A stretch of DNA of 64,000 bases. It comes from Pelagomonas calceolata. Taxonomy: Eukaryota. This document shows, in pieces, positions 5,484 to 56,305 of this stretch (positions within the stretch are counted from its first letter, which is position 1; each line of letters starts with the position of its first letter). Made by a program: the position numbers and the translations under genes. The stretch is taken from NCBI GenBank assembly GCA_918797485.1, contig CAKKNE010000006.1:3038001-3102000 (forward strand), written 5' to 3'. Under the pieces are notes generated by a model. The model was given only the letters and a program-made list of their open reading frames with translations, was not told the origin of the DNA and searched no databases.

Positions 5484-6237
5484 ATGTCAGCCGTCCCCTT
5501 CGCCGGCGTCGGCAAGCCCTTCCAGAAGCACGCCGAGCGCCACGCCGCCGGCACGCCGCGGGAATCGATAGACGAGTTTGACGGGCGGGCCGTGCTCGCG
5601 CTGCCGCGGGAGGGCGCGTCCAAGGACGGCGAGCGGCCCTGGTTCTCGGGCCAGGTCGTCGCGACGGACGGGTCGCGGCGCCAGTTCCAGGTCCTCGCGA
5701 CCCCCCTACCGCCCTGCGAGGACGGCTGCAAGTGTTCGGGGGGCGACGGCCTGCATAGATATAGGTTGGCCCTCAAGGACGCGACGCGGCGGTTGTGTGC
5801 GGTGGTCATCTGCGACGCGTCGGGCGGCGACTTCCTGCGGTTGAGACCTGTGTGGACATCAAATTTTACGGCGCGTTCGCCTGCCCGATGGCGTGGCGAT
5901 GTCGGTTCCTCACCGCTCGACGGACACCCGACGCACTGGTTGATTTCCACACAGGTTGACGCCGGCGGACCCTTCGTTAGCATCGTTCGAGCCGGAGACG
6001 CTCCTCGAAGACGACCGCGCGCGGGCCGCGCTAGATACGTTCTTCCCGCGCCTCGCGGCGGAGGCCGACGCCGGTTTTGATTGTTGCGTCGTCGTCGGTC
6101 GGTTTCAATGCAAGCAGTTGCTCCTCTTCGGGGCGACGCGGAAGCGCGGGGCCGCCGATGCTATGCCGGGCGCCACGCCGCCGCCCAAGAAGCCGGCGGT
6201 CGCACCGGCTCCGACGACGCCGCCGCCGGGGCCCTAG
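5484..6237 (+). CDS. two-exon hypothetical protein (5484-5839, 5955-6237); possible OB fold resembling the POT1/RPA C-terminus
   Basis: removing intron 5840-5954 joins GGDFLR|LTPADPSL in frame; YRLALKDAT...FDCCVVV resembles the POT1 C-terminal OB fold. Confidence 0.55.
5848..5954 (+). mobile_element. introner element (intron 5840-5954, GT-AG)
   Basis: TIR ctgtgtggacatcaa/ttgatttccacacag; TSD gttgagac/gttgacgc. Confidence 0.85.
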
Positions 6238-6356
6238 GAGGGGTGCCAGCTCCGAGGCGCCCTGGGAGTGGCGTCGCGTCGTCGCTGTGTCTGTGATCTG
6301 TGTGTGTGCCTAACTACCCCCTTCGACGCCGCCGACGCGCCAACTCATAGACAAAC

Positions 6357-6998
6357 TTAGTGCGTGAAGATCTTCCCCTTGCGCTCGCCGCAGACGGGCC
6401 GCGCCGACATGGGCTCGCGGTACGTCTCGAGGTAGTAGCGCGGCAGGGCCCGATCGTCTTCCTCCTTCTTCGCTTGCAGGGACGATAGCCGCGCTTCCAA
6501 CGCCCTCCTTTCGTCCAGGATGTCATCAAGACGACCCTTCGAGGCATCCACATCGTCCGCTGAAATAGTATAGATGTACTCGTGCCGCCTCATGGTATAC
6601 GGTTTCCGCGGGACGCCCTCATCGGTCAGAAACCGCGGCGACGGCGCGTCGGGCGTCGCCGGCCGCGGCCGCGCTTCCCGTTGTATTATACCTGGTGCCA
6701 TCTTCCCTCTACGAGAGACGGGGTCGTAGGTCACGTCGCCTCGTCTGTAAGCTCTTGCGACTTCGGCCAAAGCCCTACCAGTAGTCGTGTGCTGCGTCCT
6801 TTGGTAAGCGACGGCCTTCGATGCGTCGAAGACGGTCGTGGGGAGGGTGAATTTGGGCGGCGCGCGGTCCTCGTACTTCTGCTCCTTCGTCATCCTATCC
6901 CGCTCGTAGGCCAGTTCCTGCGTCGAGAGGCAGCGCGCCAATGAATTGCCGTCCCTTACTCCGACCTCCTTGTGGGCTACTACTTTCTCGCGCGTCAT
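6357..6998 (-). CDS. hypothetical protein (5' end uncertain)
   Basis: ORF of >200 aa with a coiled-coil segment (ILDERRALEARLSSLQ). Confidence 0.55.
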   Translation of the reverse strand: MTREKVVAHKEVGVRDGNSLARCLSTQELAYERDRMTKEQKYEDRAPPKFTLPTTVFDASKAVAYQRTQHTTTGRALAEVARAYRRGDVTYDPVSRRGKMAPGIIQREARPRPATPDAPSPRFLTDEGVPRKPYTMRRHEYIYTISADDVDASKGRLDDILDERRALEARLSSLQAKKEEDDRALPRYYLETYREPMSARPVCGERKGKIFTH

Positions 6999-7479
6999 CC
7001 TGCGCAGCGATGGCGTCGAGGCGCTTGCAATCACTTATGGTGAGGCTGGCTGCCTGTGGGCCTCCTGGGACGAGCGACGGCGGCCGCGGCGGGAGGCGGC
7101 CGGTTTGTAGTCGTTCGTGTGCCGCAAGCGTCTCCCGCTGGAAGGGCTGCGTTTGCGGGCGGAGAGGCACCGCTACACTCAGGCGCTGCGGCGTGAGATG
7201 GCCTCTCTAGAAACGCGAGCGCTCTCCGCGGGCTGCGGACCACGTGTTAACGCGTCTGGAGACGTATGGGTGTGTGGGAGTGCTCGAAATCCGACATGCT
7301 AGTGGGGTTACCTAGCACCATCGGACAAAATTATTTGGGCCGACAAGCAGCCATTACTTTCCGGTTTTGCAACGACAAGCCGCAAAACTCTCGGATCAGT
7401 CGATTGGCTGCCACGCGCCGCCATTCGTCGCCTCCTCTCGCTCTCAGCCCTCGCCGCGCCGGCGCGCAGCCTGGCAGCC

Positions 7480-8223
7480 ATGCCGGCCACCAAGCGCACG
7501 CTCGCGTTGTTCGACGTCGACGGTACATTAACACCAGCGCGCCTGAAGATCACGCCGGAGATGAAGGCCTTCCTCCAAGAATTGCGGAAAACCATCAGCA
7601 TCGGCGTCGTCGGTGGGTCCGACTTCGTCAAGCAACAGGAGCAAATCGGTAGCGATTCTCTGTCCAATTTCGACTACTCCTTCGCCGAGAACGGGTTGGT
7701 AGCGTACAAAAACGACGAACTAATAGCGAAGGCGTCGTTCGCCCAAAAGATCGGCGAAGAGGAGTTACAGAAATTAATTAATTGGGTCCTCGCGTACCTG
7801 TCCAAAATTACGTTGCCCATCAAGCGGGGCACGTTCATCGAGTTCCGGACGGGCATGCTCAACATCTCGCCGATCGGGCGGAACTGCGCGCGCGACGAAA
7901 GGAACGCGTTCGAGGAGTATGATTTGAAGAACAATATAAGAAAGGACATGGTCGCTGCGATGCAGAAAGAGTTCGCCCACCTCAACCTGACCTTCTCGAT
8001 CGGCGGGCAGATCTCGTTCGACGTGTTTCCCGCGGGGTGGGACAAGACGTACTGCCTCCAGTTTGTGGATAGATCGTTGTTCGACGAGGTCCATTTTTTT
8101 GGAGACAAGACCTTTGAAGGCGGTAATGATTATGAGATCTTTACGCACCCGGACGTGAAGGGCCACTCCGTGACGTCGCCGGACGACACGAAGGCGCAGT
8201 GCACGGAGCTGTTCCTCTCGTAG
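7480..8223 (+). CDS. PMM: phosphomannomutase (eukaryotic HAD type)
   Basis: LFDVDGTLT, VGGSD, KRGTFIEFRTGMLNISPIGR, GGQISFDVFP, FFGDKT...GGND. Confidence 0.97.
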   Translation: MPATKRTLALFDVDGTLTPARLKITPEMKAFLQELRKTISIGVVGGSDFVKQQEQIGSDSLSNFDYSFAENGLVAYKNDELIAKASFAQKIGEEELQKLINWVLAYLSKITLPIKRGTFIEFRTGMLNISPIGRNCARDERNAFEEYDLKNNIRKDMVAAMQKEFAHLNLTFSIGGQISFDVFPAGWDKTYCLQFVDRSLFDEVHFFGDKTFEGGNDYEIFTHPDVKGHSVTSPDDTKAQCTELFLS

Positions 8224-8279
8224 ATGATGGACTGTGGTATAAAAACTTGAGATTTAATTGCTAGGGGGTAGGTCGTGAA

Positions 8280-9440
8280 TTAGAGCGTGATGCCGAAGTT
8301 GGCCTCGAGGGCGTCGCGCCACTCCTTCTCCGTGGAAAGAGTCGTGCGGCTGACTTCGACGCCGCGCTCGACGGTCTTGATGTAGTCCTTGCCGAGCATG
8401 ACATGACCGTCGTCCTTGGCGAGGACGCAGAGGCCTGCGGGCGGAACACACACGTCGCCGTCACGACCGTACGAGTCGAAGGGAAGAGGACACCGGGGCG
8501 CTACGCTTCGCTTGGAAGATGTTCTTCTCGGGGTCTTCGTCGAGCACGGCCGCAAGGCCCTCGACGAATTCCGGCGAATCGTACGGGAGGTCATCTTCTA
8601 AATTCAGGGCGTAGACCGGAATTGGGGGCATAGGCTCCGGCGGCGGCGGAGGAGCTCCCACAATATCGAAGAAGGCTGTTGCTGAGCCAACGCTTCGCTC
8701 GCGCATCAGGACGTGGGAAAACCGCTCAGCAAGACCAAACTCTTCTAGGCCGAAGCCAGCGGATGGCGCGAGATTGTACTTTTCGCCGAGCGCAGGATCG
8801 GTCGCGCCGCCCTTGACGGAGAAGATTGTGCGGATCGCGTCGCCGAAACCGGGATCGACGAGCAATGGGTCCGCTCCGAGGCCGTCCACAAAGATGACCA
8901 AATGTCCCTTGTTGGGCGGAGTGCCGGGCGGGCCGAAGACGTCGGAGCGGCCCAGGCGGACGCTGTAGCCCAGCTGGCGCAGGAGCCACGCGAAGGAGAA
9001 ATTGAGTTCGAAGCAAAAACCTCCCCTGTTTTTCTCGACGAGCTTGCTCAGGCACGCGTCGACGTCGAGCGTTGGTAATAACGGCTTGGAAACGGCAGGC
9101 GTGCCGATGAAGGGCAGTCCCTCGGACGGATGGTTGTGCTGTCCAAGGTTCTCAAAAGGAATTGACGAAAGATGCGCGGTCAGCAACGCCTGGAGGTCCT
9201 CCGCGTTCGGTGCTCGGTCCACGATGGCGGCGTCGACCTGCGTAGCGCGCATGTGTCGCGGCGCGCGCGTCTCACGGGGACGCCGATGGGACGCACGCCG
9301 AGGCGGTTCAGGTACATGTCTCGCATCCCGGCATCGTCCGCGCTGCTCGCCGCCGCGCGGGGCTGCCTATGGACTCTGGAATGGGATGGTGGCAGCGTGA
9401 ACGCTGCCGCGACGGGCACAAGGAGCAGCCAAGCAACCAT
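8280..9440 (-). CDS. NAT: arylamine N-acetyltransferase, 3 exons (9440-9297, 9237-8505, 8434-8280)
   Basis: YLNRLG|VD...IPFENL, GGFCFELN, GHL, LVDPGFG (Cys-His-Asp triad); GT-AG introns 9296-9238 and 8504-8435 restore the frame. Confidence 0.88.
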
Positions 9441-9604
9441 GATCGACGGAGCTGGCTTGATTGTAGCCCTTAGCGGCGTTACACTTGCGAAGGCAGCGTC
9501 TGTCTTCTTTTGGCAGCGTCAAATGATGGGGGAGTTCTAGATTCCAAAAACTTGAACTCATGGTGCGGGTCCGCGAAGGCAGACGGATATAAGTAACAAC
9601 ATGA

Positions 9605-11643: not shown

Positions 11644-11665
11644 CTAGTGGCTGACAGGACACTAG
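11644..11665 (+). promoter_or_regulatory. degenerate CTAG-bounded motif copy between convergent genes
   Basis: ctagtggctgacaggacactag. Confidence 0.4.
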
Positions 11666-11725: not shown

Positions 11726-13085
11726 TTACCCGGCCGCCTCCCCGGGATCGCTCCGCGTCGGCAGCCACGGCGCCTTGACGGACAGGCGCGAGCAGGGCCG
11801 CCGCGCGCAGAAGGCCTCCATGAGCTTCGTCATCGTGTCCGCCGTCAGATATTCCCCCGCCTCGGCCTTGCTGGCGCCGAAGGCCTCGACGACGTCCGCG
11901 GGATCGTCCCACGGCGCCACCGCGATCTCGCCGTACGGCTCCACTCGCGCCGTGAGGGGAGGCGGTAGCGTCCGCCGGCACGAACGCCGCAAACAGAAGA
12001 ACTCGAGCATCTTGTTCGCGCTCTGCTCGGTGATCTCGAAGCCGGCGGCCGTCGCCTCGCGCGAAAATTTGGCCACCTGTGTGGAACTCGACCAGTGAGT
12101 CGCGTCGACGGCGTGGAGGTCGACGCGATGTTTTCCGCACGGAGGTCACGGCAGCCGCGGGCTCGCCCCACGGCGGCACCTCCAGCGCGCCGACGCCCTC
12201 CACATCCAAACGCATGGGCGCGACGGGCCGGTGGCAGCTTCGACGCGCGCAGAACCACGCCATCGCCGCGTCGAGCTGCTCCGGGAGTACTGATATATAA
12301 GCTTCGGCGGCCGTCGAGGCCAGCCGTTCTACGGCCGTCGCCGGCTCCTCCGTCGGTAGGCAGGTGACGCTGCCCAGCCCGCTCACGTTCAGCGTCAGCG
12401 GCGGCGTCAGCCCCCGCCCGCAGCTCCTTCTCTTACAACACCACTCGTACAAATCCTGCATGCTCGCTTCATTCACTTCGTGCCCCGACATCGTCGCGGC
12501 GGCCGTCCAGCCCTCGATCGCGTCCGCGACGTCGTGCCAGGGCTCGACAACCAGTCTTCCTACTCCCGTCACGTTGAGTTCCAATCTCCGATCGAGCGCG
12601 TCGACGCACGCGCGCTTCTCACACACGGCGTCGAGCACCCGTCTTAATTGATTCTCGCCCAGGGGGTTGCCCGCGCTCTCGGCCGCCCGTCCGAGCTCGG
12701 CCACCGCTCTGGCCGGCTCGACCCAGGGCTCGACCACTAATGTCCCGACGCCCTTGACGTTCGCCGTCAGCCGTTCCCTGTGGAAGCGCCTTCTACAGGG
12801 CGCGAGGACGCAGAGCTTGTCGAGGATCGTCGTGAGGTTCTGTAACGACAGCGTCACGTTCTGCTTGAGGGCCGTGGCGTAAAAGGCCTCCACCACGTCC
12901 GCCGGGTCGACGCCGGGGTCCACCCGCAGCACGCCGAGGTTCTCGACCGTGAGCGACACGGGCTCAGTCGGCGCCTCCGGCGCCTTGGCTCTTCTTGCCG
13001 CTTCTAACAATGCGCGCGCTCGTCCTTCTACCTCGTCGTCGCTGCGGCACAGCGCGGCGAGGAGCAGAAAATTGCAGCCCCGCAT
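11726..13085 (-). CDS. secreted protein with six ~65-aa Cys-paired repeats; 2 exons (13085-12150, 12076-11726)
   Basis: repeat V.G.G.L.V.P..EPA..V...C.RR.C; splicing 12149-12077 completes repeat 5 (EPAAA|VAKFSRE). Confidence 0.75.
12077..12149 (-). mobile_element. degenerate introner-derived intron (GT-AG)
   Basis: ends ctgtgtggaactcgaccagtgag / ttttccgcacgg; TSD remnant gtgacc/gtggcc. Confidence 0.75.
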
Positions 13086-17808: not shown

Positions 17809-19642
17809 CTAATCCCACCCGTCGTCGCCCGTCGCCACGACCTCCTCCGCGACGGGCTCGACGTAGTCCGTGTACTTCGCGCGGGCGTCCAAGAGCTGCG
17901 GATGGATGTCCTCCGCCAGCTCGCGCCGCGCCGCCGCCGCGGCTTCCACGCGGAGCTCGCGCAGGCGCAACGCCATGCGCGCGGGTATCACGAGCTCGCC
18001 GCCCCGGATGTGGTAGGGCGACTCGTCCCTATAAGCCCAGAGCGCCTCCATGCATGCATCAGCATCGGCGCCGGCGTCGCGCGGCCGCGCCTCGTACTGG
18101 CCCGGCGGCGGCCGCTTCGAGCGCTTTTCGAGCGACGAGCGCGGGTCGCCCTTGGACAGCTTCGGGACCCACTTCTGGGAAAACCTGTGCGTATCTCATT
18201 GAGAAGTGCGAGGACGATCGAAACATTCGACGCCGGACGGGGACTCCTCGAGAAACGATAGCGCCGCATCCTTCGCCGCCGAAGCTATTTCGTCCCCCTC
18301 CCCCTTCACATACTTGGCTTCACGTTCCTCGCGGCGCTTGCGACGCCGCTCGACGACGCGCTCGTCCACGTCATCATCGTCTTGATCGGCCTTGGCCTCT
18401 CTCCTTAAATAACCGCTCTCAAAGGCATTTTGTGGAGTCAACGAACGCACCTCCTCCGTGAGCGCCTCCAATGCTCGCAGCGTCGCGAGGCGGTCGCAGG
18501 CTCGTTGACTGTGTGAACGGTACCGTCGCGTCGATGGCGCGTTGCTCGACGCCATCGACGCGGACCCGAAGTATTGAAGGCACAATTGACACCGAGTCAG
18601 CACTCAAACGCGTAGAGGGGCATCGGCTCGTCCTCGGTGTACCAGCTCGTGCGCGTTTCACCGCCCTCCGCGAGCTCGGCATCTCGCAGCATGGCCGCCT
18701 GTGCACAAATCAACCAGTGAGTCGGGTGCGACAGATGCGCCGCGAGAATTTGATTTATGCACTGATGGTCGCGTCGGGCAGGCCCCCGATCTGGCGCTCG
18801 AGCGCGACGCGCTCCTGGTCCGCCTTCTCGAGCTCAGAGAACTGAAATGCCCAGGTGTCGACCTGTGTGGAAATCAAAATTTTACGGCGCGTTCGCGCTG
18901 AATCTTCGCGTCGAGCTTCACGCCATCGACGCGACGCCTGCTCGATGGCGTGGCGATGCCGGTTCCTCACCGGTCGACAGAGCCAGCGCGGCCAAGTGCA
19001 CCCGACGCAATGGTTGATTTCCACACAGGTGTCGACCATGACGTCGGCCGTCGTCACCAGCCTTTTTAGAACTTGCTTTGGGTCAATCACCTCGTCGTAG
19101 ACTTCCATGGCTTGCTTAGCCAGGAACGGATTGGCGAGTTCTCGCGCCGACCTGTGTGGAAATCAACCAGTGCGTCGGGTGCACCCGACAATTCTTCACT
19201 AAGTCATTTCTCGGCGATGGCGCGGCCGTGCCGGCTCCGTCGGGCGGCGAGGAACCGGCATCCTCACGCTATGGAGCAGGCGCCGCGACGCGCCATAAAA
19301 TTTTGATTTCCACACAGGCGCCGACAGGCGCCGCCGCGGGGCCACCGCGATCTCTACGACCTCTTTCTCGGCCGTGCCCATGTCTACTAAGTATTCCTGG
19401 AACGGTTTGTTGAGCTGGCCGAACGCGGCGCTGTAGGTGCCGGGGAAACGTCTTGGTGAATTGCTATCGAGGTGGGCGTGGTCCTGGAAGGCCTTGAGCC
19501 AATTACCGAGCGGTTCGTTCTTCAAATCAGCCATATAATTCAACTGCTGCTGAACGGCGCGCTGGACGAGGTAGTCGCCGAGGTTGATCTTGGGCGGCGC
19601 CAATGCCCAGGCGGCGGTGGCGAGGCAGAGGTAGCGCCACAT
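17809..19642 (-). CDS. six-exon hypothetical protein with plastid-type presequence (exons 19642-19326, 19151-19037, 18862-18773, 18698-18604, 18508-18245, 18184-17809)
   Basis: five introns removed by hand give one continuous frame from MWRYLCLATAAWALAPP to ...ATGDDGWD*. Confidence 0.75.
18509..18603 (-). mobile_element. old, degenerate introner-like intron (GT-AG)
   Basis: 3' end ttcacacag; internal cgcgtcgatggcg motifs; splicing gives YAFD|QRACDRL. Confidence 0.55.
18699..18764 (-). mobile_element. short introner (intron 18772-18699, GC-AG)
   Basis: TIR ctgtgcacaaatcaa/ttgatttatgcactg; TSD atggccgc/atggtcgc. Confidence 0.8.
18863..19028 (-). mobile_element. intact introner (intron 19036-18863, GT-AG)
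   Basis: perfect 15-bp TIR ctgtgtggaaatcaa; perfect 8-bp TSD gtgtcgac at 18855-18862 and 19029-19036. Confidence 0.93.
19152..19317 (-). mobile_element. intact introner (intron 19325-19152, GT-AG)
   Basis: perfect TIR; perfect TSD gcgccgac at 19144-19151 and 19318-19325. Confidence 0.93.
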
Positions 19643-25416: not shown

Positions 25417-25518
25417 GAGCTAGTGGCAGCCAGGCTCGCTCCTAGGGGCGGTCTGGAGCGACTTCACAGGGTAGTGTCAGTCACCCTAGGGCCTGGACCT
25501 AGGTATGCTGGACCGGTG
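25417..25518 (+). repeat. diverged direct repeat, left copy (pairs with 32309-32397)
   Basis: ggcagccaggctcgc...ggagcga.ttcacagg.tagt...ctagggcc...aggtatg..ggaccggtg shared. Confidence 0.75.
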
Positions 25519-26828: not shown

Positions 26829-27290
26829 CTTTACGCCCGGTAGAAAGTTCGGGTCTGATCAAACGCCCTTGCGGCCAACACACGCGCTGCGACTCGTAAA
26901 GTGGCCTCGGATCTGGTGCTGACTGCCTATTAGTAGGGCGCAAGCCTTATGGCGTGCCGGCGCGTGGCCTCGCGGCCCCGCGCTGCGCCCAAATGTCCAT
27001 CACCACCATCACTCTGGCCGAGCGTTTTGTGCGCGCTGGCTCTTGCGGCAACCGCTTCGCAGCGATGCCGCAGTCCCGCCACGCACGCTTCGCCGGTGCG
27101 CGCCTCGCAGCTCCTCGGCCGGCCGTCGCCGGAGAATACGAGCGCCGCCGCGAGCGCCGACACTTTTTTTTGTTTCAAGGCATCATCATCAACGACATCG
27201 CGCCGACCTCGTGCTCGCCGACGCCGAGGCTCTTCGTGCTCACGCCGTTCTTCTACTGCTGGAGACGCGCGCGCCGACGCCTGCGGCGCC

Positions 27291-30200
27291 ATGACGCTCA
27301 AGGATATCAAAAAGCAGCTCCTCACTTTGTGCACGGTCCAGGCCGTCAATCTTCACGGAGGTCGCTTCGCGAAGTGCGTGGAGAAGTGTGTCAAGAAATT
27401 GTTTAGCCTCAATAAACGCTTAGACGTCGTCAAGTTCGACAGGAGCATTTGGAGCTACTACTTCCACGGAAGAACGGACTGGGAGCTCCGTGGTGTCGCC
27501 CGAGCATTGCGTTCGCTCGGCGTCTACACCGTGACGCTCATAGACGGCTTTGGTCAAACCATAGTGAAAGTGCGCCACACGGGCAAGTTCGTGAGGTTCC
27601 GCGTGAACCCGCTCTGTATCTGCTGCGCGTGGCTCGGCCGCAACCACGCCGCGGTCCTCGCCCTGGGACTCTACGTGCCGGACGATTTGTACGATTTGGC
27701 GGCGCGCGTCCGCGAGGACGCCGCTTTAGTCGCTTCGCAGTCCAAGCCGCAGGAGGCCGACTACGAGGCGTACAAGAACGCCGGTTTCTGCGTTGTAAGG
27801 GAGGGCGACGTCGGAGCTCTCCTCGACGCCGTGCAGCAGAAACTAGGTTCGGGCACCGTTCTGGCTGGCGTAGGCGACGCCGACGCCGCTGGTAGCCTGA
27901 TGGAGTTGTTACTACCCGACCTGGACGTGGCGGACCTCACGAACGACGGCGACGCCGGGCTCGTCAACTCGTACATCACGCACGAGCGAAATCTGGGGCG
28001 GTTCGCCGTGTACGACACGCGCTTCGAGGACGACCAGCGGAGGAAGATGCTCTGGACGGCGCTCAACTTGTGCGGCGAGGGCGACTGCATGGTCCGCGAC
28101 GTCCTCAGCAGGACGACTCAACGCGACTCGGTTCGCTTCACGGCGATCTCGGGCCGCATCGACTCGGGCCGCATCACGACCCTCGACCAGCTGTTCGCCG
28201 AGGTCGGCGCGAGCCGCGACCAGCGCCTGCACGTCATCTACGCGCTGACGACCTACGTCAACGGCGTGTGGTGCGTCGACGGCACCCCCAAGCCGTTGCG
28301 GATCCTCGCCACGGCCGAGCAGTACGCGCGGTCGTCGCTGACGCGGAACCGCGTGGCGGTGCGGCGCGCCGTCCTCGCTAGCAGCGCCGATTCCAAGCTC
28401 GTCGAGGCGGTGTTCGAAGCCGCCTTCAGCACGGCGCGCGGCTACTACGGCGTCAAGGACGTCGCCGCGGCGCTCATGGAAATCTCGCAAGGTGCGACGA
28501 AGGTGCATGTGCTCGATCGCCGCGAGGCGGTGCTCAAGGACGTCGATGAGGCGTTCGATGATGCGACGGCCGTTTTAGCTACGAGCGCTTTGGCGGAGAA
28601 CTTCGGCGAGGCGGAGCTCCAGGGGTTGCTGGCCGAGGTCTACAAAGACAAGGCCTGGCTGGCGCTGACAAATGATAGTGTGTTCTTCCCGCCGTCCCGC
28701 GAGGAGGTCGACTGCCGGGGGGCGGAGGTAGCCTTCGCCGCCCTGAAGAAAAAAGCTGATGACGTGAAATCGCGCCTGGAGCTCTTCTACCGCCTGATAT
28801 CACGTGCAGAGCAGGCTGTGTCGCACGCCGGCGAGGCTTCGCGGCGGGCCATCGACGCTCTAGACAGATTGGCTGCCGGCTCCTCCGTCCTGGACGCCGC
28901 CATCGCGGCTGCTACGAGCCACATCGACTCCATTGATGCGGCGGTGGTGGGTCGCGCGGCGTCGGCCTTTAATTTAGCTGTGGAAGCGTGGAAGCAGAAC
29001 AACGTCGAGGGCGTCACGGCGCAGATCGATGCCTTGAAAGCGGCGGTGGATCCCGCGCTTGTCATGGGATTGCAGGGGTGCGCCGTCCGGTTGCACTCTG
29101 CGGTGGTAGATGCGACGTGGGCGTCGCAGCAACGTGTGCCGGAGGTTACGCGCTCCACCCTCGAAGCGCTCTCTGCGCATGGTTCATTATCGGCTTCGTT
29201 AAGGGACCACCTCAAGACATTCTTCGACCAGTGCGCCGCCGAGACGGACCTGGACCGCTTCCTGGGCGTGTTGAATGAAGAGCTCGCCGGCGGTCTGCGG
29301 TGGGGTACGCTACACGCCATCGAGCGAGCGGCCGGCGTGGCGTCCACAGCATTAGGTCGCGCGTCCAGTGTACGGCGCATCGTCGACGGCGTGATCGACC
29401 GGGTTAGGTATTTCGAGAAGTCGTGTTTTGGCGGTCCCACTGCTTATGTTGCACTGCAGACCCTCCTAGGCTCTGGCGACGCCGCCACGGAAGGGTCGCT
29501 GGAGCAACTCATCGTCGAGGACCTAGACACGCTCTCACATGCTTTGGTGCCCATTGTACAGCAGGCCTTGCTCGCCGACGAGCCGTCGGTAGACGAAGTG
29601 CTAGAGACTTTTGATAGAACGGTTGCGGATGTTTGGAGAAAGCTAGGCGCCGCTGACACGCCGTCTGCACGCCGGCGTGCTCTAGTGAGCAGAGTGGCAG
29701 ACATCGCGAGGCGGCCCTATGTAGCCGGAGAAACCGTGCGGCGCCACACCGACGCGTTACGCGCGGCTTTGAGTGGCGATGCTACCGCCCAAGCTACCCT
29801 CGCGTCGGTTGATGCACGATGCGGTACTGCTACTGATGCGGCGTCTGTCGAGCTCCGGGGGCGCCTCGTCGCCGCGCTGGGCGCGCTGGCCGGCGGCGCT
29901 GACGCCGTCGAGTCGCGGCTCGCCGCCGCGGAGGCGGCGGCAGACCGGGCGTGTCGGGACGTGTGGGCGCTCGTCGCTCGGCTTGCTCGCGTGGCGGACA
30001 TCGCGGCGCTGCCCGGCGCCGCTCGGGAAGCCGCGCTGCGCTACGCCGACGCGTTACGCGCGACTTTGAGTGGCGATGCGGGCGCTGAAGCCCTCCTCGT
30101 GTCGGTTGTTGGACGATGCGGTGCTGCTACTGATGCGGCGTCCGACGAGCTCCGAGGGGCCCTCGTCGCCGCGCTGGACGCGTTGGCTCGCGGCGCGGAT

Positions 30201-31979: not shown

Positions 31980-32308
31980 GTGGCAGCTGCTGCACGCCGG
32001 GGTAAGAGTGTCGTGTGAAGTTGAAAATTCAAGATATTGTTGGTTTATTGTTACGGTGCTAGAACTAGTGGGCGGAGTCCCTTGGGGGGGCACGCTAGCT
32101 AGCGGATAGCAGCAGCAGCAGCACCCGTGCCCTCGCGCGGGCGCGGCCGGTGTCGGCGCCGACACCGCGGCCAACGCCTCCCATGACGCCGCAGCCGACG
32201 CCGTGCACACAGGCCGCGGCGCTGCGCGCGAAGCTGGACCGCGTAGCCCAAGCCAACACCGCGGAGGTGCGCGCGCGCGACGCCGAGATCGCGAGCCCGC
32301 ACGCTTAC

Positions 32309-32397
32309 GAGCTTTGGCAGCCAGGCTCGCGCCAGGAGTGGTCCGGAGCGAGTTCACAGGATAGTAACACGCTAGGGCCAGGTATGAAGGACCGGTG
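32309..32397 (+). repeat. diverged direct repeat, right copy
   Basis: matches 25417-25518. Confidence 0.75.
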
Positions 32398-32502
32398 TTG
32401 ATCGACGGCGGACGCGCGGCGCCCGAGCCCACGAGTCCTACCACCGGAACGCCGTCGACGCGAGAAGGAGACTAGTATCACGTAGAGTTAAACACAATAG
32501 AC

Positions 32503-33651: not shown

Positions 33652-35231
33652 ATGATGTCATATTGCAAATTGCTGCTGCTTTGGGCAGCAGCGGCACGCC
33701 CCGTCGCGGCATGTAGGTTCATCGCCTACTGCGGCAACCGCACGGTCGACGCGCGAAAACTACTCTTGGACGGCGAGAACAATTTACTCGCCCTAGCGAC
33801 GAGCCGACCGCTCCTCCCAGCTCTCTCGCTGTCGAGGCACTACGACGAGGCACAAGTACCACTAAGGAACGTGGAGAAGAACCTGGATGGCTACGGCGTG
33901 TCCTGGTACGAAGAAGGCGAGTCCTTTCCTCGCAGAGTCAGAAGTGCCAATCCGATCATCAAGGATAATGTGTCGGATGCGACCTTCCAGAATTTGTTGG
34001 ATGGGCGGGCCGCTGTGTGGAAATCGACCAGTGAGTTAGGTTATTTGCGGAGACCTTCGTGAACCTCCACGCCATCGAACCGGCGCGGTCGCGTCGACAA
34101 TGTCGCGTCGATGGCTGAAAACCACGCTATCGAGCAGACAGCTACGGAGACAACATCGCGTCGATGGCGTAGGGCGCCCGAAATTTGATTTCCACACAGG
34201 CGCGCCGTGCCCATGCTGTTCCGGGCTTCATTAGATGTTTGTGTGGAAGAGCCGCAGCCACCTTCACAAGTAGCTCTTGAATCTAGAGCCGTCTTCGCGC
34301 ACGTAAGGGCCGCATCCCCCAATTCGACGCAGAAGGAGACCAATTCGCACCCGTTCGCATTTCATACGTTAACATGGCTCCACAATGGTCATGTTTGGGG
34401 TTTTGAAAAGTTTCGGGAGCAGCTCATCGCGAAGCTTCCCAGGAAATTGCTGCCGTTGGTCGCCGGCGACACTGATAGTGAACTGGCCGGTGCTGTGTTT
34501 GCGTCGCATCTCGCGGGGTTTCCTTATCGGAAGACGTATGATTTGGTCGCGTTGCGGGCGGCGATGCTCGCGACGGTGGCGAATCTGCGGGAGCGCTCGT
34601 TGCGGGTCCACGAGAGCGAGGGTTCCGATCTGTGTGGAAATCAACCAGTGCGTCGGGCGCACCGGCATCACCACGTCATCGAGCAGGCGTCGCGTCGATG
34701 GCGTGGAGGTCGACGCGAACGATTCAGCACGAACGATTCCACACAGGTTCCGATGTCTGCCCCGACATGCCGCCCTCATCTCTAAACTTCGCTGTTTCAG
34801 ATGGTACATCCCTGGTCGTTATAAGGTTCCGGTCCTCGATGAGCGAGGACCCGCCCACGCTCTACTACCGGATTGTACCAGAGGGCGTGATCGTCGCCTC
34901 GGAGCCGTCGTCTTCAGACGCCGAAACGCTCAGGGAGTGGACGCTGCTCGGCAAAAATAGGATGCTCTCTTATAGTCCCTCGACGGGCGTCCACGTCGAG
35001 TGCGTCTGCCCGCACAGCTGCGACGACGACGTGTCGGCGGCGGCGCACTTTTCCGGGCGGTCCGAGGCTGACGCCGTTGTTGGCAAGGGCCTGGTTTGGT
35101 ACGCCGCCGCCACGGTCCTGGCGTTCCTGCTGGGCCGGCGGTGGCCTGCTCGGTCTTTATCTGAGGAACTGGCGCTTTCTGTCGTCACCGTGTTGTTAGC
35201 CTGGTGGTGCCTGACCACTCCTCCATGGTGA
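33652..35231 (+). CDS. class II glutamine amidotransferase (EgtC/DUG3-like Ntn hydrolase), 3 exons (33652-34004, 34200-34621, 34747-35231)
   Basis: CRFIAYCG, NLDGYGVSWY, FAHVRAAS, NSHPF, WLHNG, GDTDSE, SLNFAVSDG, VASEP; two introners removed in frame. Confidence 0.88.
34013..34199 (+). mobile_element. introner (intron 34005-34199, GC-AG)
   Basis: TIR ctgtgtggaaatcga/ttgatttccacacag; TSD gcgggccg/gcgcgccg. Confidence 0.9.
34630..34746 (+). mobile_element. introner (intron 34622-34746, GT-AG)
   Basis: ctgtgtggaaatcaa...gattccacacag; perfect TSD gttccgat. Confidence 0.9.
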
Positions 35232-36887: not shown

Positions 36888-38370
36888 ATGATGCGCGCCG
36901 CCCGCCGCACCTTCAGCGAGATGAAGCCGCGCACGCGATTCGCAGCGCATAAATCAAATGTCGCATCCGCACGCCATCGCCGCGGCGCCTGCACGACGGC
37001 GTGGCGGCGCAGCGCCCTGACCTCATAGCGACTCACACAGGCGCTTCGTCATCAAGACCTTCAACAAGATCAGCCCGCAGGGCTTGGAGCGCTTTAGACC
37101 GGAAATGTACCGCATTAAACCGGGCGAGGACCAGCCTCCGGTAGCACATGCCATCATGCTCCGCTCCCACAAGATCCAAGATAGCGACGTCCCGTTGACG
37201 TGCCGAGCCATCGTGCGGTGCGGCGCGGGCACGAACAATTGCAACGTGCCGCGGATGACGGAGCTCGGGATTCCCGTCTTTAATACTCCTGGGGCCAATG
37301 CCAACGCGGTGAAAGAGTTGGTGCTTTGTGGGTTGCTCATGGCTTCTAGAGGTATTTATGAGGGTGCCAGTCACATGACGAAGTTACATGCCGAAGGCAC
37401 GGCCCACGAGCGCATCGAGAAGGACAAGGCCATGTTCGGGGGGCGCGAGTTGACGGGCAAGACGCTCGGGGTCGTCGGTCTCGGCGCCATCGGTGCGGCC
37501 GTGGCGCATTCCGCCATCGCCCTCGGCATGAATGTCGTAGGGTACGACCCCGGGTTGTCCGTCGAAGCGGCTCTCAGACTACCTTCCGGCGACATGGAGA
37601 TGGCGTCTTTGGAAGACCTCGTCGAGCAGAGCGACTACGTGACGCTACACGCTCCTTACATCAAAGATGTCACTCATCATTTGATCAACGCCGAGTTGTT
37701 GGCGAAGATGAAGCCCGATGCTAGTCTCTTAAACTTCGCGCGAGGCGAGTTAGTAGATGAAGCGGCTCTCAACGAGCGCTACGAGGATGGTGGCGGTGGT
37801 AGGTACATCACGGACTTCGCCGTTTCGGACGAGTTGTACCCGAGACCGAACGTCATCTCCATCCCGCACTTGGGAGCGTCCACGGAGGAGGCCGAGGCGA
37901 ACGCGGCCGCGATGGCCGCCGACACGGTCCAGCTCTACCTCGAGACGGGCACGATCAAGGACAGCGTCAACTTCCCGGCCTGCTCCTTACCGGCGCGCGA
38001 CGAGGAACATGTCCACCGCTGCACCGTGATCACGGAGAATCGGCCGGGCATGCTCGGTGACTTGATGAGCGTCTTCGGCGACGCTAATCTCAATGTGGTG
38101 CAACAAATAAACACCTCCAAAGGAGAACTCGCGTACAACGTGATTGATCTGGAACTTCCTAGAACGGCAGATGGGAAGGTCGACGTCGGTGAATTCGGCA
38201 CCGGCGACTTTGATAAGTTGCAGGCCAAGATCATGGAGGTGTCCGGGGTGAAGTCGACGCGGTTCATTTCGGACTGGTGCCCGGGGACGGGCTACGCCGT
38301 CAAGGTCGATGATCAGATCATCGGCATTGGCGTGGATTCGCCCGAGCAGGCGTCGTACGCGGAGCTCTGA
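36888..38370 (+). CDS. PGDH: D-3-phosphoglycerate dehydrogenase with ACT domain, 2 exons (36888-36934, 37041-38370)
   Basis: RCGAGTNN, FNTPGANANAVKELV, GVVGLGAIG, NFARGELVD, PHLGASTEEA, NRPGMLG. Confidence 0.93.
36943..37040 (+). mobile_element. degenerate introner (intron 36935-37040, GC-AG)
   Basis: cagcgcataaatcaaa...actcacacag; TSD gcgattcg/gcgcttcg; splicing gives KPRT|RFVIKTFNKIS. Confidence 0.75.
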
Positions 38371-38437: not shown

Positions 38438-40174
38438 TTAAACTATCTCGACCTCGTCGTCGTCGTCCGTCCGCTGGCGTTTCTGGGGCTTGCGGAAGAT
38501 GTCGAAGAGGGGCTTGTTCGTATTTCCGGCGGCGGCGTCCTTCGTGAACTTCGCCTTCGGGCGCGGCGCGAGCATGCACTGCCGCGGGTTGTTGAAGGGC
38601 CGGAGGCGCTTCTGCTCGCGTGTTTGCTCGAAGTCGACGATCTTTTCGAGAACCTATGTGGAAATCAACCAGTGAGCCTCGTGAGAGCAGATGCGGTGAC
38701 GGGAATTACGTCGCGTCGATGGCGTAGCGTCGCGTCGATGGCGTAGAACCTCCACGCCATCGAGCAGATGCCGCGATGGAGACACCATCGCGTCGATGGC
38801 GTAGGGCGCCCGAAATTTGATTTCCACACAGATCGTCGCCTCGCCCGGCGCGAAATTATCGGGTAAGGCGGCCTTCGCCGCGGCGCACGCGTCCTTCGCG
38901 TTCTGGATGTCCTCGAGTAGTGCTCTGGCCGATTCATACGCTTGCTGCGCCGCTGCCTTCTCCGCGGCGCGCTGCCGACGGACCTCGTCCTTCCACTCGC
39001 TAAGGGCGCGGTGGAACTTGTTCCTTGCTCTCAACACCTTCAGCCGCGCGCCGACGTCCAACCTTCGTTGGAGGCGCTCGCACGGCGCCACAGTATAAAA
39101 CGTCTGCGGCTGACCTAGAGACTGAAGAGCGATCGCCGCGCAAGGTCCTAGAGTTGGACGAGGGACCCAGAAGTAGCGCGAGGAAGCTTGTAGACAAGCG
39201 AGGGACGCGCCGTCCAAACAGGGCCCAAGATGAGCCAGAAACAGGTCGTCCGGCAGTAGAGGACACGGTCTCTCGGTCGCAGCAAGGCGCCACTTCGCCA
39301 AACAAACGCGGGCCTCGCGCATGGATCTCTCAGGTAAACCCATGGATCCGACTTGTGACGCCTGGGCGGCCTGGGCCCAGGCGTCCTCCGCGTCGTCGTC
39401 CAGAACGTGTCGCCGTCGCGCCTGTTTCCGGCCGTTCCGCGCCGCGATCATACGACGGTCTTCACCGGAGTCGAAGGGGTGGGCACACGGCTGGTTGTCG
39501 CGTTCCCACTCTCGTACCTGATCCTTGGGTCCTGCTAACCGCCACGCCCTTAATTCAAGTGCGCCAGATAAAGCTTGTATGGGCGGCACGTGGCCCTTCC
39601 ACACGTCATCTAAGAGCGCTCTCGTGTAGTCCGCGGCGAGCTCGTCGTTCCAGACGCTCGTCAGGTAGAGGCCGTCGATCAGACCATTCATATTTGATTG
39701 GGCACGCTTCTTCTTCTTCCGCGGCGGCGCGATCTGCGTTGGTCGCGGCGGCCTCGCGGGCGCGAGGCCGAAACCCGCCGTCGCGGCCCGCCTTTGTGCC
39801 GCGCCCGACACGGGCCTTGGCGGCAAAGCATTAGGCGCGCGCGGCGCCGCGAGGCCGAATCCATTGGATGCGGCCCGCCTTTGTGCTGCGCCCGACGCGG
39901 GCCTTGGCGGCGGCGGCGGCGCCCGCGGCCGCGCTTTTGATGGAGGCGGCGCGCCGGGCGACTCGACGCGCGGCGCGGCCGTGGACAGGCGCCGTCTTAA
40001 TGATGCGGCCTCCAGCACCGCGGCGTCTCTAGCACTACTCGTCGCCGCGAGGTCCCTTCTTAGGGTCTCGACGTCGCGGCGCAGGTGGTGCTTGTCACGC
40101 TGCAGCGTCTTGACCTCCGCTAGCAGCGCATCTCGGTGCTGCGTGACGCTTCGCAACTGCTCGGCGGGGTCCAT
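38438..40174 (-). CDS. coiled-coil hypothetical protein with an F-box-like segment, 2 exons (40174-38840, 38653-38438)
   Basis: LLPDDLFLAHLGPCLDGASLACLQASSR; splicing gives APGE|VLEKIVDFEQ...EVEIV*. Confidence 0.65.
38654..38831 (-). mobile_element. introner (intron 38839-38654, GC-AG)
   Basis: TIR ctatgtggaaatcaa/ttgatttccacacag; its last ~45 bp match the 34013 copy. Confidence 0.85.
39761..39911 (-). repeat. intragenic duplication with 87-bp period
   Basis: PRP(A/V)SGAAQRRAA...GFGLA twice. Confidence 0.7.
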
Positions 40175-51266: not shown

Positions 51267-51294
51267 GCGCTCCTTGAGAGGTGGGTACCGGCAT

Positions 51295-51382
51295 GTGGTC
51301 TCAGAGACGCCATCGACTCTCTGACGGCCGCGTCGACGCCGTCGCGGCGTCGCGGTCTCGCGAAGACGCCATCGACGCGACC
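51295..51382 (+). repeat. intergenic copy of the 3737-3839 repeat
   Basis: gtggtctcagagacgccatcgactctctgacggccgcgtcgacg...cgacgcgacc. Confidence 0.6.
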
Positions 51383-51475
51383 ACGCCACCCCAAACTTAA
51401 ATATCTGATGTGTAACGATTACAAACAAGTTCCCCGAACACGTGTGTGTTGGGACAATACGATCATGCGAGCGCT

Positions 51476-52264: not shown

Positions 52265-52557
52265 GGTTGCTGGCGTGCGGCGCGGCGCACCGATGCGCGT
52301 ATGGCGTCAGGTGCGACGCAGCGTCGCCCCGATGGCGTGTGGCCAGCGGTAATCCTCGCGCTCGCGCTGGCGGCGTCCAGATCTGTCCGGCACCGAGGCT
52401 TGTGGCTTGTGGTGCCAGCAGCTGTGGCAGTGATCAGCGGGAGCTAGACAGCGCGATTCTATGAGTCCAAGGGAGTGTCTGTACGAAGCTGGCAGCTTCT
52501 GTAAGTATGAGGGGCGCCGTTTAAGCCGAAGCTGCCTTGGATGCAAGGCGCTGTTAA

Positions 52558-52577
52558 CTAGTGTAGCGACACACTAG
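52558..52577. promoter_or_regulatory. degenerate CTAG-bounded motif copy
   Basis: ctagtgtagcgacacactag. Confidence 0.4.
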
Positions 52578-52662
52578 GCCAAAAAAACAATTGCTCAGAG
52601 CTAGGCCGCCTAGCCGATAGGAGCCATACGCCATCGACGCGAGAGAAGCACAAAAACACAGC

Positions 52663-53937: not shown

Positions 53938-54073
53938 CACGGGGGCAGCCTGTGCAGCACGCATCTCTTCACCACGGCGTCGCAGGCATGTGATGGGACG
54001 CCTTCGGCGCCTTGGGCAGCCTTTCCGGCGCGTGGGCGAGCTGTGCGCTGCCAAAGCTGATTCTCTACGATTG

Positions 54074-54095
54074 CTAGTGTCTTACAAGACGCTAG
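54074..54095 (-). promoter_or_regulatory. CTAG-bounded intergenic motif copy
   Basis: ctagtgtcttacaagacgctag between divergent genes. Confidence 0.7.
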
Positions 54096-54302
54096 GGTGA
54101 AATTGTTGCCGGCAAAAGTCCGCAAAACGGCGCCAGATCGCAGCCAAACACAGCACCGGAAGCTCGGTTTAAGCTCGTGCACACGCTGCGCCCCAGCCCG
54201 CGCATCAATTTGTGCCTGAAACGCCAGCGTCTACTCTGAAACTCCTGCGCATTGTCAGGGCCACCGATCTAGACTCCTGCGTCAGCGCCACCGATCAAAA
54301 GA

Positions 54303-54962
54303 ATGGCGTACCCCGGCCACTCCGCCGACGACCTGCAGGAGGACGAGGACGAAGCGAAAGCGTGGATCGAGGCCGTCACTCAATTACAAAAGCCGGACGA
54401 CGAGACCTTCGAGGCCTGGCTGCGGAGCGGCGTCGTCCTTTGTACCCTGTTAAACGCCTTGAAGCCCGGCTCCATTAAAAAAATCTCCACATCACAAATG
54501 CCGTTCAAGCAGATGGAGCAGATTAGTTTATTTTTGAGAGGTATAAGGACATTGGGCGTGCAGGAGTTCGAGGTCTTCGACACGAATGATTTGTATCGAG
54601 GCAAGGACATGAGAAAAGTAGTGCAATGTATTCATAGTATAGGCACCGCTGTAAAAAAGTCGGGTTGGTCTGGGCCGCAGCTCGGCGTCAAAATAGCCTC
54701 GCCGAACAAACGGGACTTCTCGGAGCAGCAGCTGCTCGAGGCTCGTTCAGCGACCTCCAAGTTAACTGTCGGGTCCGCTGGGTTTACGGAGCGGTCAGAA
54801 GTCCTCAAGGAAGGTATTACGTTCGGCAACGACCAGTCCGGCTCCGGGGCCGCCCTAAATTCGCGGCAGACGATGGGCTCGGCCGCGTCCACCGAACGGT
54901 TGGAGGTCATCGACCGGGGCATCACGATGGGGTCAAATGCCGCGACGCGGGACCTCGAGTAA
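54303..54962 (+). CDS. calponin-homology protein (transgelin/calponin-like)
   Basis: WLRSGVVLCTLLNALKPGSI...MPFKQMEQI..F..FDTNDLY...GPQLGVK..NKRDFSEQQL. Confidence 0.9.
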   Translation: MAYPGHSADDLQEDEDEAKAWIEAVTQLQKPDDETFEAWLRSGVVLCTLLNALKPGSIKKISTSQMPFKQMEQISLFLRGIRTLGVQEFEVFDTNDLYRGKDMRKVVQCIHSIGTAVKKSGWSGPQLGVKIASPNKRDFSEQQLLEARSATSKLTVGSAGFTERSEVLKEGITFGNDQSGSGAALNSRQTMGSAASTERLEVIDRGITMGSNAATRDLE

Positions 54963-54977
54963 CAAGTGTTAATGTTA

Positions 54978-56305
54978 TTAGTCACAGTTTGTCATGCGCT
55001 CGATGGCGTCGAGCTGCATCGCCGCCTCCGTGCGGACGACGGGGAGCACGTCCTTGAGCGGCCGCGGCGCCTTGCTCGCATCGAAAACAAACGAGAAGTT
55101 GTTCGTCAGCGTGCTCTCGCGGAGGCCCGGCTTCCACACGGCAGCTGTCACGTCGACGCAGACGCGGCCCTGGTCGCAGACGTGGACGACGTGCGACTTG
55201 AGCGCCAGGAGAGCCCCCACTTCAACTGGTCGCACGAAGTCGACTTGCGCGATGGACCGCGTCGTCGGCGCGCACCTGCGTGACACGCCATCGACGCGGA
55301 CCGTCTCGCGAAAATGACGCCGGTGCGGCACCCCGAGAACGCGTACGCCGTCGCGAACGCTAATTCTAGAGCGTAGCGCATCAGCGCGCCGCCGAAGACT
55401 CGTCCGGCGGTGTTCCGCACTTGCGGCTGGGTGGTTATCGCGTTCTTCAGGGACGTCTCGTGCATCAATACAAAGCCCTCGTCGGCCTGGCCCGGAAAAT
55501 CTCTGGCGATGCGCCCGGGCTTCAGGAGCGCCTCGATCTGCGCGTCGCGCGCCGCGGCGCTCTCCGCTTTCTTGGAAGGATCTTTCGCGGCCTGGCGCTG
55601 CTCTTTTCGCGCGGCCTGGATTTTGGCTGCATCTGCGAATAACCGTTTCTCGGTCTCAGTCTCCGGGGTTAGCGGAGGAACTGTGTGACCTCCAGACCCG
55701 TCCCGCTTCCGGGCCACGAACGTGAAGACGGCGGACAGCGCCACGGCGTCGCTATCTTTGTGGCGAAGCTCGGCCACGATCTCGAGCGAGGACCGCCCCG
55801 CCCAAACCAAACTACCAACCAAATTGTAGTCTTCATCCAACGCGAGCGTGTCGTCCCTGACCTCGAGGCGCTCCATCGACGCCGTGACGAGGATGGGCGG
55901 CGCCGTGTCCGGATTGCCGTCGTCCACATGTAAATACGCCACGCTGCCGGCGAGAGCGTCCATGTCCTCCAAGAGCCGCCCGACTCGTAATGTCCCGAAG
56001 GCCGATTCGTACCTGTTTCTCAGCTCCTTGTCTTGCGTGAGATCATACGCGACGACAACCCTCGAGTCCGCGGGCAGGCGGCTGCCGTCCGGTCTCAGCG
56101 GCGGCGCCTGCGACTCGCGCAGCTTCCAGAGGTGCTGCGTGACGCTCGTGCGGTGCGCGGCGGCTGCCGTTCGCGCGTCGTCGGCTGCTGTAGTGCTCAA
56201 ACAGCGGCAAAGAGCACTCGTGCCGCGCGAACAGCGGCTCAGAGCCGTCCTGGCCAGCAGTCTATGCAGCGGTGCGGCGCGCCTCAGACAGTTGGAAGCG
56301 ATCAT
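54978..56305 (-). CDS. acyl-CoA thioesterase (ACOT9-like, double hot-dog), 2 exons (56305-55332, 55275-54978)
   Basis: GRLLEDMDALAG, LVTAS, WAGRSSLEI, RNTAGRVFGGALMR, AFSG|CAP...VDFVRPVEVG. Confidence 0.88.
55276..55331 (-). mobile_element. short degenerate introner-like intron (GT-AG)
   Basis: internal cgcgtcgatggcgt; TSD remnant gtgccgca/gtgcgcgc. Confidence 0.5.

What the first reader, a model, noticed from the sequence alone, without database searches (positions are those of the whole stretch)
5840..55331. Introner family that makes scarless introns using its own target-site duplication as the donor
About 11 elements, the best preserved with CTGTGTGGAAATCAA...TTGATTTCCACACAG ends. Where a TSD is discernible it is 8 bp and begins with GT or GC on the sense strand (e.g. 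gtcgacac, gtcggcgc, gttccgat, gcgggccg, gcgattcg). The 5' TSD copy gives the donor and the TIR's terminal CAG gives the acceptor, so splicing restores the original coding sequence. All tested splices keep the frame. This matches the introner mechanism known from Aureococcus. Interiors differ in length (66-187 bp) and are built from cgcgtcgatggcgt units.
Basis: partly seen in the sequence, partly recalled or inferred. Interest (0 to 1): 0.7.

Follow-up and report, generated by a model that had tools for sequence, protein, structure and literature searches.

The report
Known Pelagomonas self-splicing-compatible transposon introns
Small jumping-DNA copies sit inside genes of the marine alga Pelagomonas calceolata and are cut cleanly out of the messenger RNA together with one copy of the 8-letter duplication they likely made on landing, a real but already catalogued way of creating new introns.

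Summary
The window is Pelagomonas calceolata DNA. It holds 11 intact or decayed copies of a 15-bp-TIR element. Seven boundaries predicted in advance (E3-E9) match polyA RNA joints exactly (10-64 reads per run). E2 has indirect support; E1 and E10 have no RNA evidence shown. In 95 metagenome copies the duplication is 8 bp (42 perfect). All 42 start GT/GC on one strand, and that is the coding strand in 35 of 37 testable copies, whichever way the element points. Relatives have empty sites without indels. Corrections: E9 and E3b show no TSD; frame-keeping is a weak test; only one of three subfamilies is built from the repeat unit; the master length is 203 bp. No transposase was found. Published: 956 putative introners in this species (PMC9481584 supplement), and a 340-copy, 202-bp family, "co-opt 5', carry 3'", called hAT (PMC12130899 dataset).

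The parts
5840..5954 (+). E1 predicted intron: 5' TSD GTTGAGAC (5840-5847) + 107-bp subfamily I element, orientation B>A; 3' TSD GTTGACGC at 5955-5962
   Evidence: restores a 212-aa ORF; no RNA joint among those displayed (169 joints hidden)
12077..12149 (-). E2 predicted 73-nt intron, decayed subfamily I element, GT donor, TSD 5/8
   Evidence: contigs of X5 and X11 end their match at 12147, which fits a donor at 12149 (table 8); indirect
18185..18244 (-). E3c, a 60-nt GT..AG intron ending CGCACAG; no family homology shown; shared with relatives that lack E3-E5
   Evidence: 36 reads
18509..18603 (-). E3b, a 95-nt GT..AG intron; decayed element with repeat units, no discernible TSD (2/8)
   Evidence: 27 reads + 2 contig sets
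18699..18772 (-). E3, a 74-nt GC..AG intron: TSD GCGACCAT + 66-bp element
   Evidence: 39 reads + 2 contig sets
18863..19036 (-). E4, a 174-nt GT..AG intron: perfect TSD GTCGACAC + 166-bp subfamily I element, A>B; in frame and stop-free if retained
   Evidence: 30 reads + 2 contig sets
19152..19325 (-). E5, a 174-nt GT..AG intron: perfect TSD GTCGGCGC + 166-bp subfamily I element, B>A
   Evidence: 30 reads + 2 contig sets
17809..19642 (-). Host gene with five introns (E5, E4, E3, E3b, E3c); 418 aa, no Pfam hit in the 4 exon pieces scanned
   Evidence: spliced product identical to NCBI CAH0379986.1 of P. calceolata
34005..34199 (+). E6, a 195-nt GC..AG intron: TSD GCGGGCCG (7/8) + 187-bp subfamily II element, A>B
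   Evidence: 18+19 reads + X7 contig
34622..34746 (+). E7, a 125-nt GT..AG intron: perfect TSD GTTCCGAT + 117-bp subfamily I element, A>B
   Evidence: 16+15 reads + X7, X13 contigs
33652..35231 (+). Host gene, class II glutamine amidotransferase (GATase_6), 419 aa
   Evidence: spliced product identical to NCBI CAH0379993.1
36935..37040 (+). E8, a 106-nt GC..AG intron: TSD GCGATTCG (7/8) + decayed 98-bp element, in a D-2-hydroxyacid (phosphoglycerate-type) dehydrogenase gene 36888-38370
   Evidence: 64+41 reads + X7, X13 contigs; Pfam
38654..38839 (-). E9, a 186-nt GC..AG intron (acceptor CATAG): 8-nt spacer + 178-bp subfamily II element, B>A; TSD eroded (1/8) but the register is kept
   Evidence: 10+25 reads + X7 contig; no indel against P0113 and P0117
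55276..55331 (-). E10 predicted 56-nt GT..AG intron, heavily decayed (TSD 4/8)
   Evidence: extends the ORF from 385 to 423 aa; not covered by either RNA lay
54541..54548 (+). Empty site: an uninterrupted position in a 219-codon gene whose metagenome orthologue L162 carries a 203-bp element with TSD GCATTCGC/GCATCCGC
   Evidence: gap-free DNA alignment across the site

Best explanation
These are short non-coding elements with 15-bp inverted ends and an 8-bp flanking duplication, removed from the mRNA together with the first copy of the duplication, and they likely spread as non-autonomous cut-and-paste DNA transposons (introners) moved by a transposase not yet found. Shown: the upstream TSD copy supplies the GT/GC donor; the element's last bases (CAG, once TAG) supply the acceptor; the downstream TSD copy stays in the exon, so the message regains its original length. 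Both ends finish in CAG, so either orientation works (window, 9 copies with readable ends: 6 B>A, 3 clear A>B plus E7, i.e. both used; metagenome 19 vs 17). Inferred: the GT/GC rule comes mainly from selection, because insertions into coding DNA survive only if the TSD starts GY on the sense strand. After insertion the interior shrinks by deletion from a 203-bp master, and the intronic TSD copy drifts except at GY.
For: RNA joints at the boundaries noted in advance (note) for E3-E9, 7 of 7 displayed, from raw reads of one sample plus contigs of three other studies. TSD length test on 95 of 96 paired metagenome elements: mean identity 0.82 and 42 perfect at 8 bp, against 0.20-0.32 at the other lengths 2-13. 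GY on one strand in 42 of 42 perfect TSDs (background 0.33, p=4e-21); on both strands in only 6 of 42 (background 0.094, p=0.28), so no palindromic preference; orientation split 19/17. The GY strand scores as coding in 35 of 37 testable copies. End B keeps its terminal AG in 35 of 35 copies where it is the acceptor, against 27 of 33 where it lies on the donor side (p=0.010). TSD mismatches fall at positions 3-8 (7-11 of 31 each), rarely at 1-2 (2 and 1). Empty sites without indel: DNA pair L162/window; uninterrupted ORFs on 21-122 kb contigs across the E3-E6 and E9 sites.
Against: No transposase or autonomous copy: none in 30 ORFs beside six unpaired or odd ends. The published annotation table gave only one Tc1-like hit for the six terms searched, and that file was cut when stored. 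E9 (1/8) and E3b (2/8) show no TSD. E1 and E10 have no RNA evidence. Retention could not be measured, because reads from other copies pile on the elements (about 5,000-fold at E5 against about 37 in the flanking exon). No perfect-TSD copy lacks GY (0 of 42), although selection alone would allow intergenic non-GY copies. At E7, relatives have one extra residue 5 codons after the junction, in a variable loop. The codon model was trained on window genes.
Confidence: 0.93

Rival explanations
1. Same elements and splicing, but the GT/GC rule is a real target preference of the transposase (or of transcription-coupled targeting) rather than a selective filter.
For: 0 of 42 perfect TSDs lack GY; paired copies outside coding DNA are scarce (2 of 37 score better on the other strand).
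Against: GY is not tied to either element end (19 vs 17) and is not palindromic (6 of 42, p=0.28). It follows the host strand (35 of 37). Several unpaired, truncated End A copies have non-GY flanks and run into what looks like intergenic DNA (by eye).
Confidence: 0.2
2. The elements spread by reverse splicing of the excised intron RNA (as proposed for fungal ILEs), and the TSD and TIR are incidental.
For: Almost all paired copies are sense-strand introns; no transposase was found.
Against: Both orientations occur relative to the gene; the mobile unit begins 8 nt inside the intron; the 8 nt are site-specific and duplicated. An RNA route predicts one orientation and a constant intron start.
Confidence: 0.03
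3. The empty sites in relatives reflect precise intron loss from an ancestor that carried all these introns, not recent gain.
For: cDNA-mediated loss is also scarless; several window copies are decayed and so old (E2, E3, E3b, E10).
Against: More distant relatives (69-74% identity, 44-122 kb contigs) lack all of them. Near-identical 203-bp copies (up to 96%) sit at unrelated sites. Three different insertion points occur within about 25 codons of the E9 gene in different relatives.
Confidence: 0.07

Closest known systems
Pelagomonas calceolata introner fam2 (also fam1, 3, 39), Gozashti et al. 2025, PMC12130899 dataset sd07 (rows seen; main text passages)
   Same: Same species; TIR DNA element of 202-203 bp; TIR 13-15 bp; GT 281 / GC 42 donors, AG acceptor; mechanism 'co-opt 5' carry 3''; TE starts 7 columns after the donor in their alignment.
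   Different: Identity with this family is inferred from these features: the TIR string was not found in the 14 supplementary files searched. Their automated fam2 row gives no TSD length (8 bp is measured here). They class it as hAT from a RepBase hit (hATv-2N1_EHux), which I could not test.
956 putative introner elements of P. calceolata, Guerin et al. 2022, PMC9481584 (main-text passages; Supplementary Note 3 passages; Fig. S3 not visible)
   Same: GT and GC donors, AG acceptor, conserved TIR, intron length peak near 210 bp (203+8 = 211 here). Two host proteins are identical to NCBI P. calceolata models that already splice these introns.
   Different: The passages seen do not describe the TSD, orientation, subfamilies or empty sites.
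Aureococcus anophagefferens introner elements, Huff, Zilberman and Roy 2016 (paper not held; known from passages of bioRxiv 10.1101/2020.10.14.339549, PMC9860276, and dataset row fam1)
   Same: Pelagophyte; one splice site carried, the other taken from the TSD; works in either orientation; intron about 210 bp; 'co-opt 5' carry 3''.
   Different: Sequence relationship of the TIRs not tested (no Aureococcus copy in hand). Another Aureococcus family adds 12 bp to the mRNA (PMC9860276 Fig. 2F legend), unlike this one.
Polarella glacialis ILE classes 6, 8 and 10 (bioRxiv 10.1101/2020.10.14.339549, passages)
   Same: 8-nt TSD starting at the donor; either orientation.
   Different: Dinoflagellate; GA donors allowed (GHN6); no sequence link tested.

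Membership tests
Introner (TIR/TSD type, co-opt 5' carry 3') | Many similar copies at unrelated sites in genes | tested here: met
   11 in the window; 96 distinct sites in 120 metagenome loci
Introner (TIR/TSD type, co-opt 5' carry 3') | Removed from mRNA at the predicted boundaries | tested here: met
   7 of 7 displayed joints, E3-E9; E1 and E10 untested, E2 indirect
Introner (TIR/TSD type, co-opt 5' carry 3') | Donor from the TSD, acceptor from the element end | tested here: met
   TSD not discernible at E9 and E3b
Introner (TIR/TSD type, co-opt 5' carry 3') | Empty orthologous sites without length change | tested here: met
   DNA pair L162/window; protein alignments; one-residue difference near E7
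MITE (non-autonomous TIR DNA transposon) | Short, non-coding, TIRs, fixed-length TSD, uniform master length | tested here: met
   15-bp TIR, 8-bp TSD, mode 203 bp (14 of 96)
MITE (non-autonomous TIR DNA transposon) | Autonomous partner with the same TIR | tested here: inconclusive
   none in 267 kb of short loci or 30 ORFs; no whole genome held
hAT superfamily | 8-bp TSD and short TIR | tested here: met
   also fits P, Merlin and others (recalled)
hAT superfamily | TIR starting YARNG (recalled consensus) | tested here: not met
   the TIR starts CTGTG; the consensus is from memory, and divergent hAT subgroups may differ
hAT superfamily | hAT-type DDE transposase in the autonomous element | not testable with these tools
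P. calceolata fam2 of Gozashti 2025 | Sequence identity with the published consensus | not testable with these tools
   consensus not in the supplements searched; length, TIR, donors and mechanism agree

The most novel reading that the evidence does not exclude
Wild Pelagomonas populations are still polymorphic for these introns, site by site: near-identical alleles lack E6 but carry E7, and three different insertions fall within about 25 codons of one gene. At least three subfamilies with largely unrelated interiors share one TIR and exactly 203 bp, pointing to one still-active, non-canonical 8-bp-TSD transposase and a strict length constraint (possibly one nucleosome repeat). An abundant, culturable alga would then allow intron gain and its selective filter to be watched directly.
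Probability: 0.4. Interest if true: 0.5.

Novelty: already known. Interest (0 to 1): 0.22.

Why it matters
It is a clean, RNA-supported example of how DNA transposons create introns without changing proteins, a main route of intron gain. The mechanism and its presence in this species are published, so the gain in knowledge is small. What this work adds: the measured 8-bp TSD, evidence that the donor rule follows the host strand rather than the element, selection on the acceptor end, three interiors of one length, and apparent presence/absence variation among wild relatives.

Tried and rejected
No whole genome was held, so no genome-wide count or transposase search was possible. Viral contigs: 53 single 15-mer hits; one had a chance-level partner (2 mismatches, 2 kb away, without the family's subterminal sequence); no sign of a viral carrier. 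Prokaryote genomes: one hit, at a contig end in a MAG, most likely an assembly join or contamination. Autonomous element: of 122 End A hits, 26 had no partner within 450 bp at <=3 mismatches. None had a far partner at <=2 mismatches; 17 of these loci were re-examined with looser rules; 30 ORFs from six loci gave no transposase domain. Branch point inside the TIR (TTGAT): considered, not supported, because these positions are no better conserved at acceptor ends than at donor-side ends. Palindromic target preference: rejected. L060/L107 as an empty-site pair: rejected, low-complexity match. Frame-keeping as proof of boundaries: rejected. Huff 2016 not held under two ids. Review PMC11282704 (passages) does not mention Aureococcus. 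Searches 'introner + Pelagomonas' and 'introner + pelagophyte' listed only Guerin 2022 and one Mamiellales preprint; the and 63 listings were not relevant. Metatranscriptome X15 did not display the window's joints and is not used as evidence. Supplements not seen: the figures of PMC9481584, its scanned file 5 and the cut part of file 4.
Full report
Observation. The window is 63% GC, gene-dense eukaryotic DNA. The TIR CTGTGTGGAAATCAA occurs 12 times at up to 2 mismatches, against 0.05 in shuffles. Six copies have recognisable paired TIRs (E1, E4, E5, E6, E7, E9), three are decayed pairs (E2, E3, E8), and two more are recognisable by the repeat unit and a CACAG/CGCAG end (E3b, E10). TSD matches out of 8 are 8, 8, 8 (E4, E5, E7), 7, 7, 7 (E3, E6, E8), 6 (E1), 5 (E2), 4 (E10), 2 (E3b) and 1 (E9). 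The two ends differ just inside the TIR (End A continues CCAGTG, End B continues AATTT), and both orientations occur relative to the host gene.

Organism. An exon of the E3-E5 gene is 100% identical to a UniRef entry of Pelagomonas calceolata. The spliced products of the E3-E5 gene (418 aa) and the E6-E7 gene (419 aa) are identical to NCBI proteins CAH0379986.1 and CAH0379993.1 of that species. Public annotation therefore already removes these seven introns.

Splicing. I wrote the predicted boundaries (5' TSD copy + element) into the notebook before laying reads. Raw polyA reads show joints of exactly the predicted size and place, within the ambiguity the TSD causes: E3 74 nt (39 reads), E4 174 (30), E5 174 (30) in X21; E6 195 (18 and 19), E7 125 (16 and 15), E8 106 (64 and 41), E9 186 (10 and 25) in X21 and X22, which are one sample. 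Contigs from three other studies agree: X5 and X11 for E3-E5, X7 for E6-E9, X13 for E7 and E8. Read strands fit the gene strands. E3b (95 nt, 27 reads) and a 60-nt intron E3c (36 reads) are also spliced. E1 and E2 joints were not among the 15 displayed (169 hidden). For E2, two contigs stop matching at 12147, which fits a donor at 12149. E10 lay outside both lays. Retention could not be measured, since reads from other copies pile up on the elements. Their loose ends show further sites flanked by GY-starting 8-mers, one in what reads like a light-harvesting protein exon (recalled motif).

Family statistics. Of these, 96 paired with End B at distinct sites and 26 did not. In the 95 with enough flank, the duplication is 8 bp: mean identity 0.82 and 42 perfect, against 0.20-0.32 for the other lengths from 2 to 13. 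All 42 perfect TSDs, and all 60 with at most one mismatch, start GT or GC on one strand (background 0.33). Among the 42, the GY lies on the A>B strand only in 19, on the B>A strand only in 17, and on both in 6, no more than chance. In the 37 copies with long flanks, at most one TSD mismatch and a one-sided GY, a codon model trained on 4,090 window codons prefers the GY strand in 35. So the donor follows the host gene, not the element. Among 68 copies with an assignable role, End B keeps its final AG in 35 of 35 as acceptor and 27 of 33 on the donor side (p=0.010). In 31 imperfect TSDs the first two positions rarely differ; this is partly built into the selection rule.

Subfamilies. The modal length is 203 bp (14 of 96). 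Three interiors share the TIR and this length: I (65 copies), II (19, rich in CGCGTCGATGGCGT units) and III (4, without them); 8 are unassigned. I and II share only a patchy 60-nt stretch, and III only 12-17 nt. The window copies are internal-deletion derivatives of I (E1, E2, E4, E5, E7, E8) and II (E6, E9, marginally E3b). 'Built from units' therefore describes subfamily II only.

Empty sites. Locus L162 carries a 203-bp copy in a gene whose window orthologue (87% identical) is uninterrupted at 54541-54548, with a gap-free alignment once the element and one TSD copy are removed. Orthologous ORFs called as uninterrupted on contigs of 21, 39, 44 and 122 kb cross the E3, E3b, E4, E5, E6 and E9 sites with no indel. 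At E7 they have one extra residue five codons downstream. Nine near-identical records cross the E6 site and then read into E7. Several cross E5-E3b and read into E3c. In the E9 gene, P0114 reads into E9, while P0115/P0116 and P0111/P0112 read into what look like other copies 8 codons before and about 11 codons after it. This suggests presence/absence variation among wild relatives, but the DNA origin of the short contigs is not shown, and partly spliced or misassembled RNA could mimic some cases.

Mechanism. Shown: the structure, the 8-bp TSD, splicing that removes the element plus one TSD, both orientations, and empty sites. Inferred: mobilisation by a cut-and-paste transposase in trans, a selective filter for GY on the sense strand, and later decay. 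No autonomous element or transposase was found, and no genome was available. The superfamily is open: the TSD fits hAT, but the TIR start does not fit the recalled hAT consensus.

Prior knowledge. Guerin et al. 2022 (PMC9481584; passages of main text and Supplementary Note 3) report an intron peak near 210 bp and 956 putative introners with GT/GC donors, AG acceptors and conserved TIRs. Gozashti et al. 2025 (PMC12130899; passages and dataset rows) list 11 families in this species. Their fam2 has 340 copies, 202 bp, a TIR, mechanism 'co-opt 5' carry 3'' and a hAT call, and Aureococcus fam1 has the same mechanism. Either-orientation splicing in Aureococcus is mentioned in bioRxiv 10.1101/2020.10.14.339549 (passages). 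Gozashti 2022 (PMC9860276, passages) describes the class. Huff 2016 itself was not held; what I say of it comes from these citing passages. I could not match sequences to the published consensus. Earlier scan notes held no look-alike of E5 and nothing on pelagophyte introners.

Verdict. Observation confirmed, interpretation supported, already known in this species. Interest 0.22. The open points worth pursuing are the missing transposase, the fixed 203-bp length across unlike interiors, and variation among wild strains. A separate intergenic motif seen in passing may be less explored than the finding itself.

Noticed in passing
window 393, 5202, 10680, 13270, 14295, 19884, 23403, 26808, 35312, 40338, 54074, 56413, 61322 (variants at 11655, 47639): Motif CTAGCG-N(2-6)-TAAGACACTAG, an imperfect inverted repeat CTAGYG...CRCTAG. 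TAAGACACTAG occurs 14 times at <=1 mismatch against 0.3 expected; 13 of 14 look intergenic by eye, mostly between divergent gene starts. There are 39 hits in 267 kb of metagenome loci. Likely a general promoter element; one five-term paper search found nothing, which is weak evidence.
   Followed up: partly
window 18185-18244 (-): The 60-nt intron E3c is spliced (36 reads) and appears retained in gene calls of relatives that lack E3-E5. It ends CGCACAG, so it may be a much older copy.
   Followed up: partly
window about 8435-8500 (-) and 9240-9315 (-): Two more probable short introns ending CCCGCAG / TACGCAG in one gene; possibly old decayed copies; no joint among those displayed.
   Followed up: no
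window 19152-19317 and 34630-34746, loose ends: Hundreds to thousands of polyA reads join other genes' exons to element ends, one with a light-harvesting-like motif (recalled) and a GTTTGCAT flank. This points to retained or exonic copies in highly expressed genes elsewhere.
   Followed up: no
window 3752, 15966, 32449, 49390, 51366, 52628: Isolated copies of the CGCGTCGATGGCGT unit without TIRs, several near gene ends; possibly remnants.
   Followed up: no
L062, L065, L136, L152: Subfamily III: the same TIR and 203-207 bp length but an interior unlike I and II; absent from the window.
   Followed up: partly
L174:2653-2673: An End A fragment at the end of a contig of a bacterial MAG, next to a metallophosphoesterase ORF; most likely a chimeric assembly.
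   Followed up: partly
window about 27290-31980 (+): A long ORF of about 1,500 codons with several tandem, diverged internal repeats (about 29700-30830); not analysed.
   Followed up: no
window about 25440-25510 and 32320-32400: Two similar intergenic stretches (ggcagccaggctcgc...ttcacagg.tagt...ggaccggtg); a possible second small repeat.
   Followed up: no
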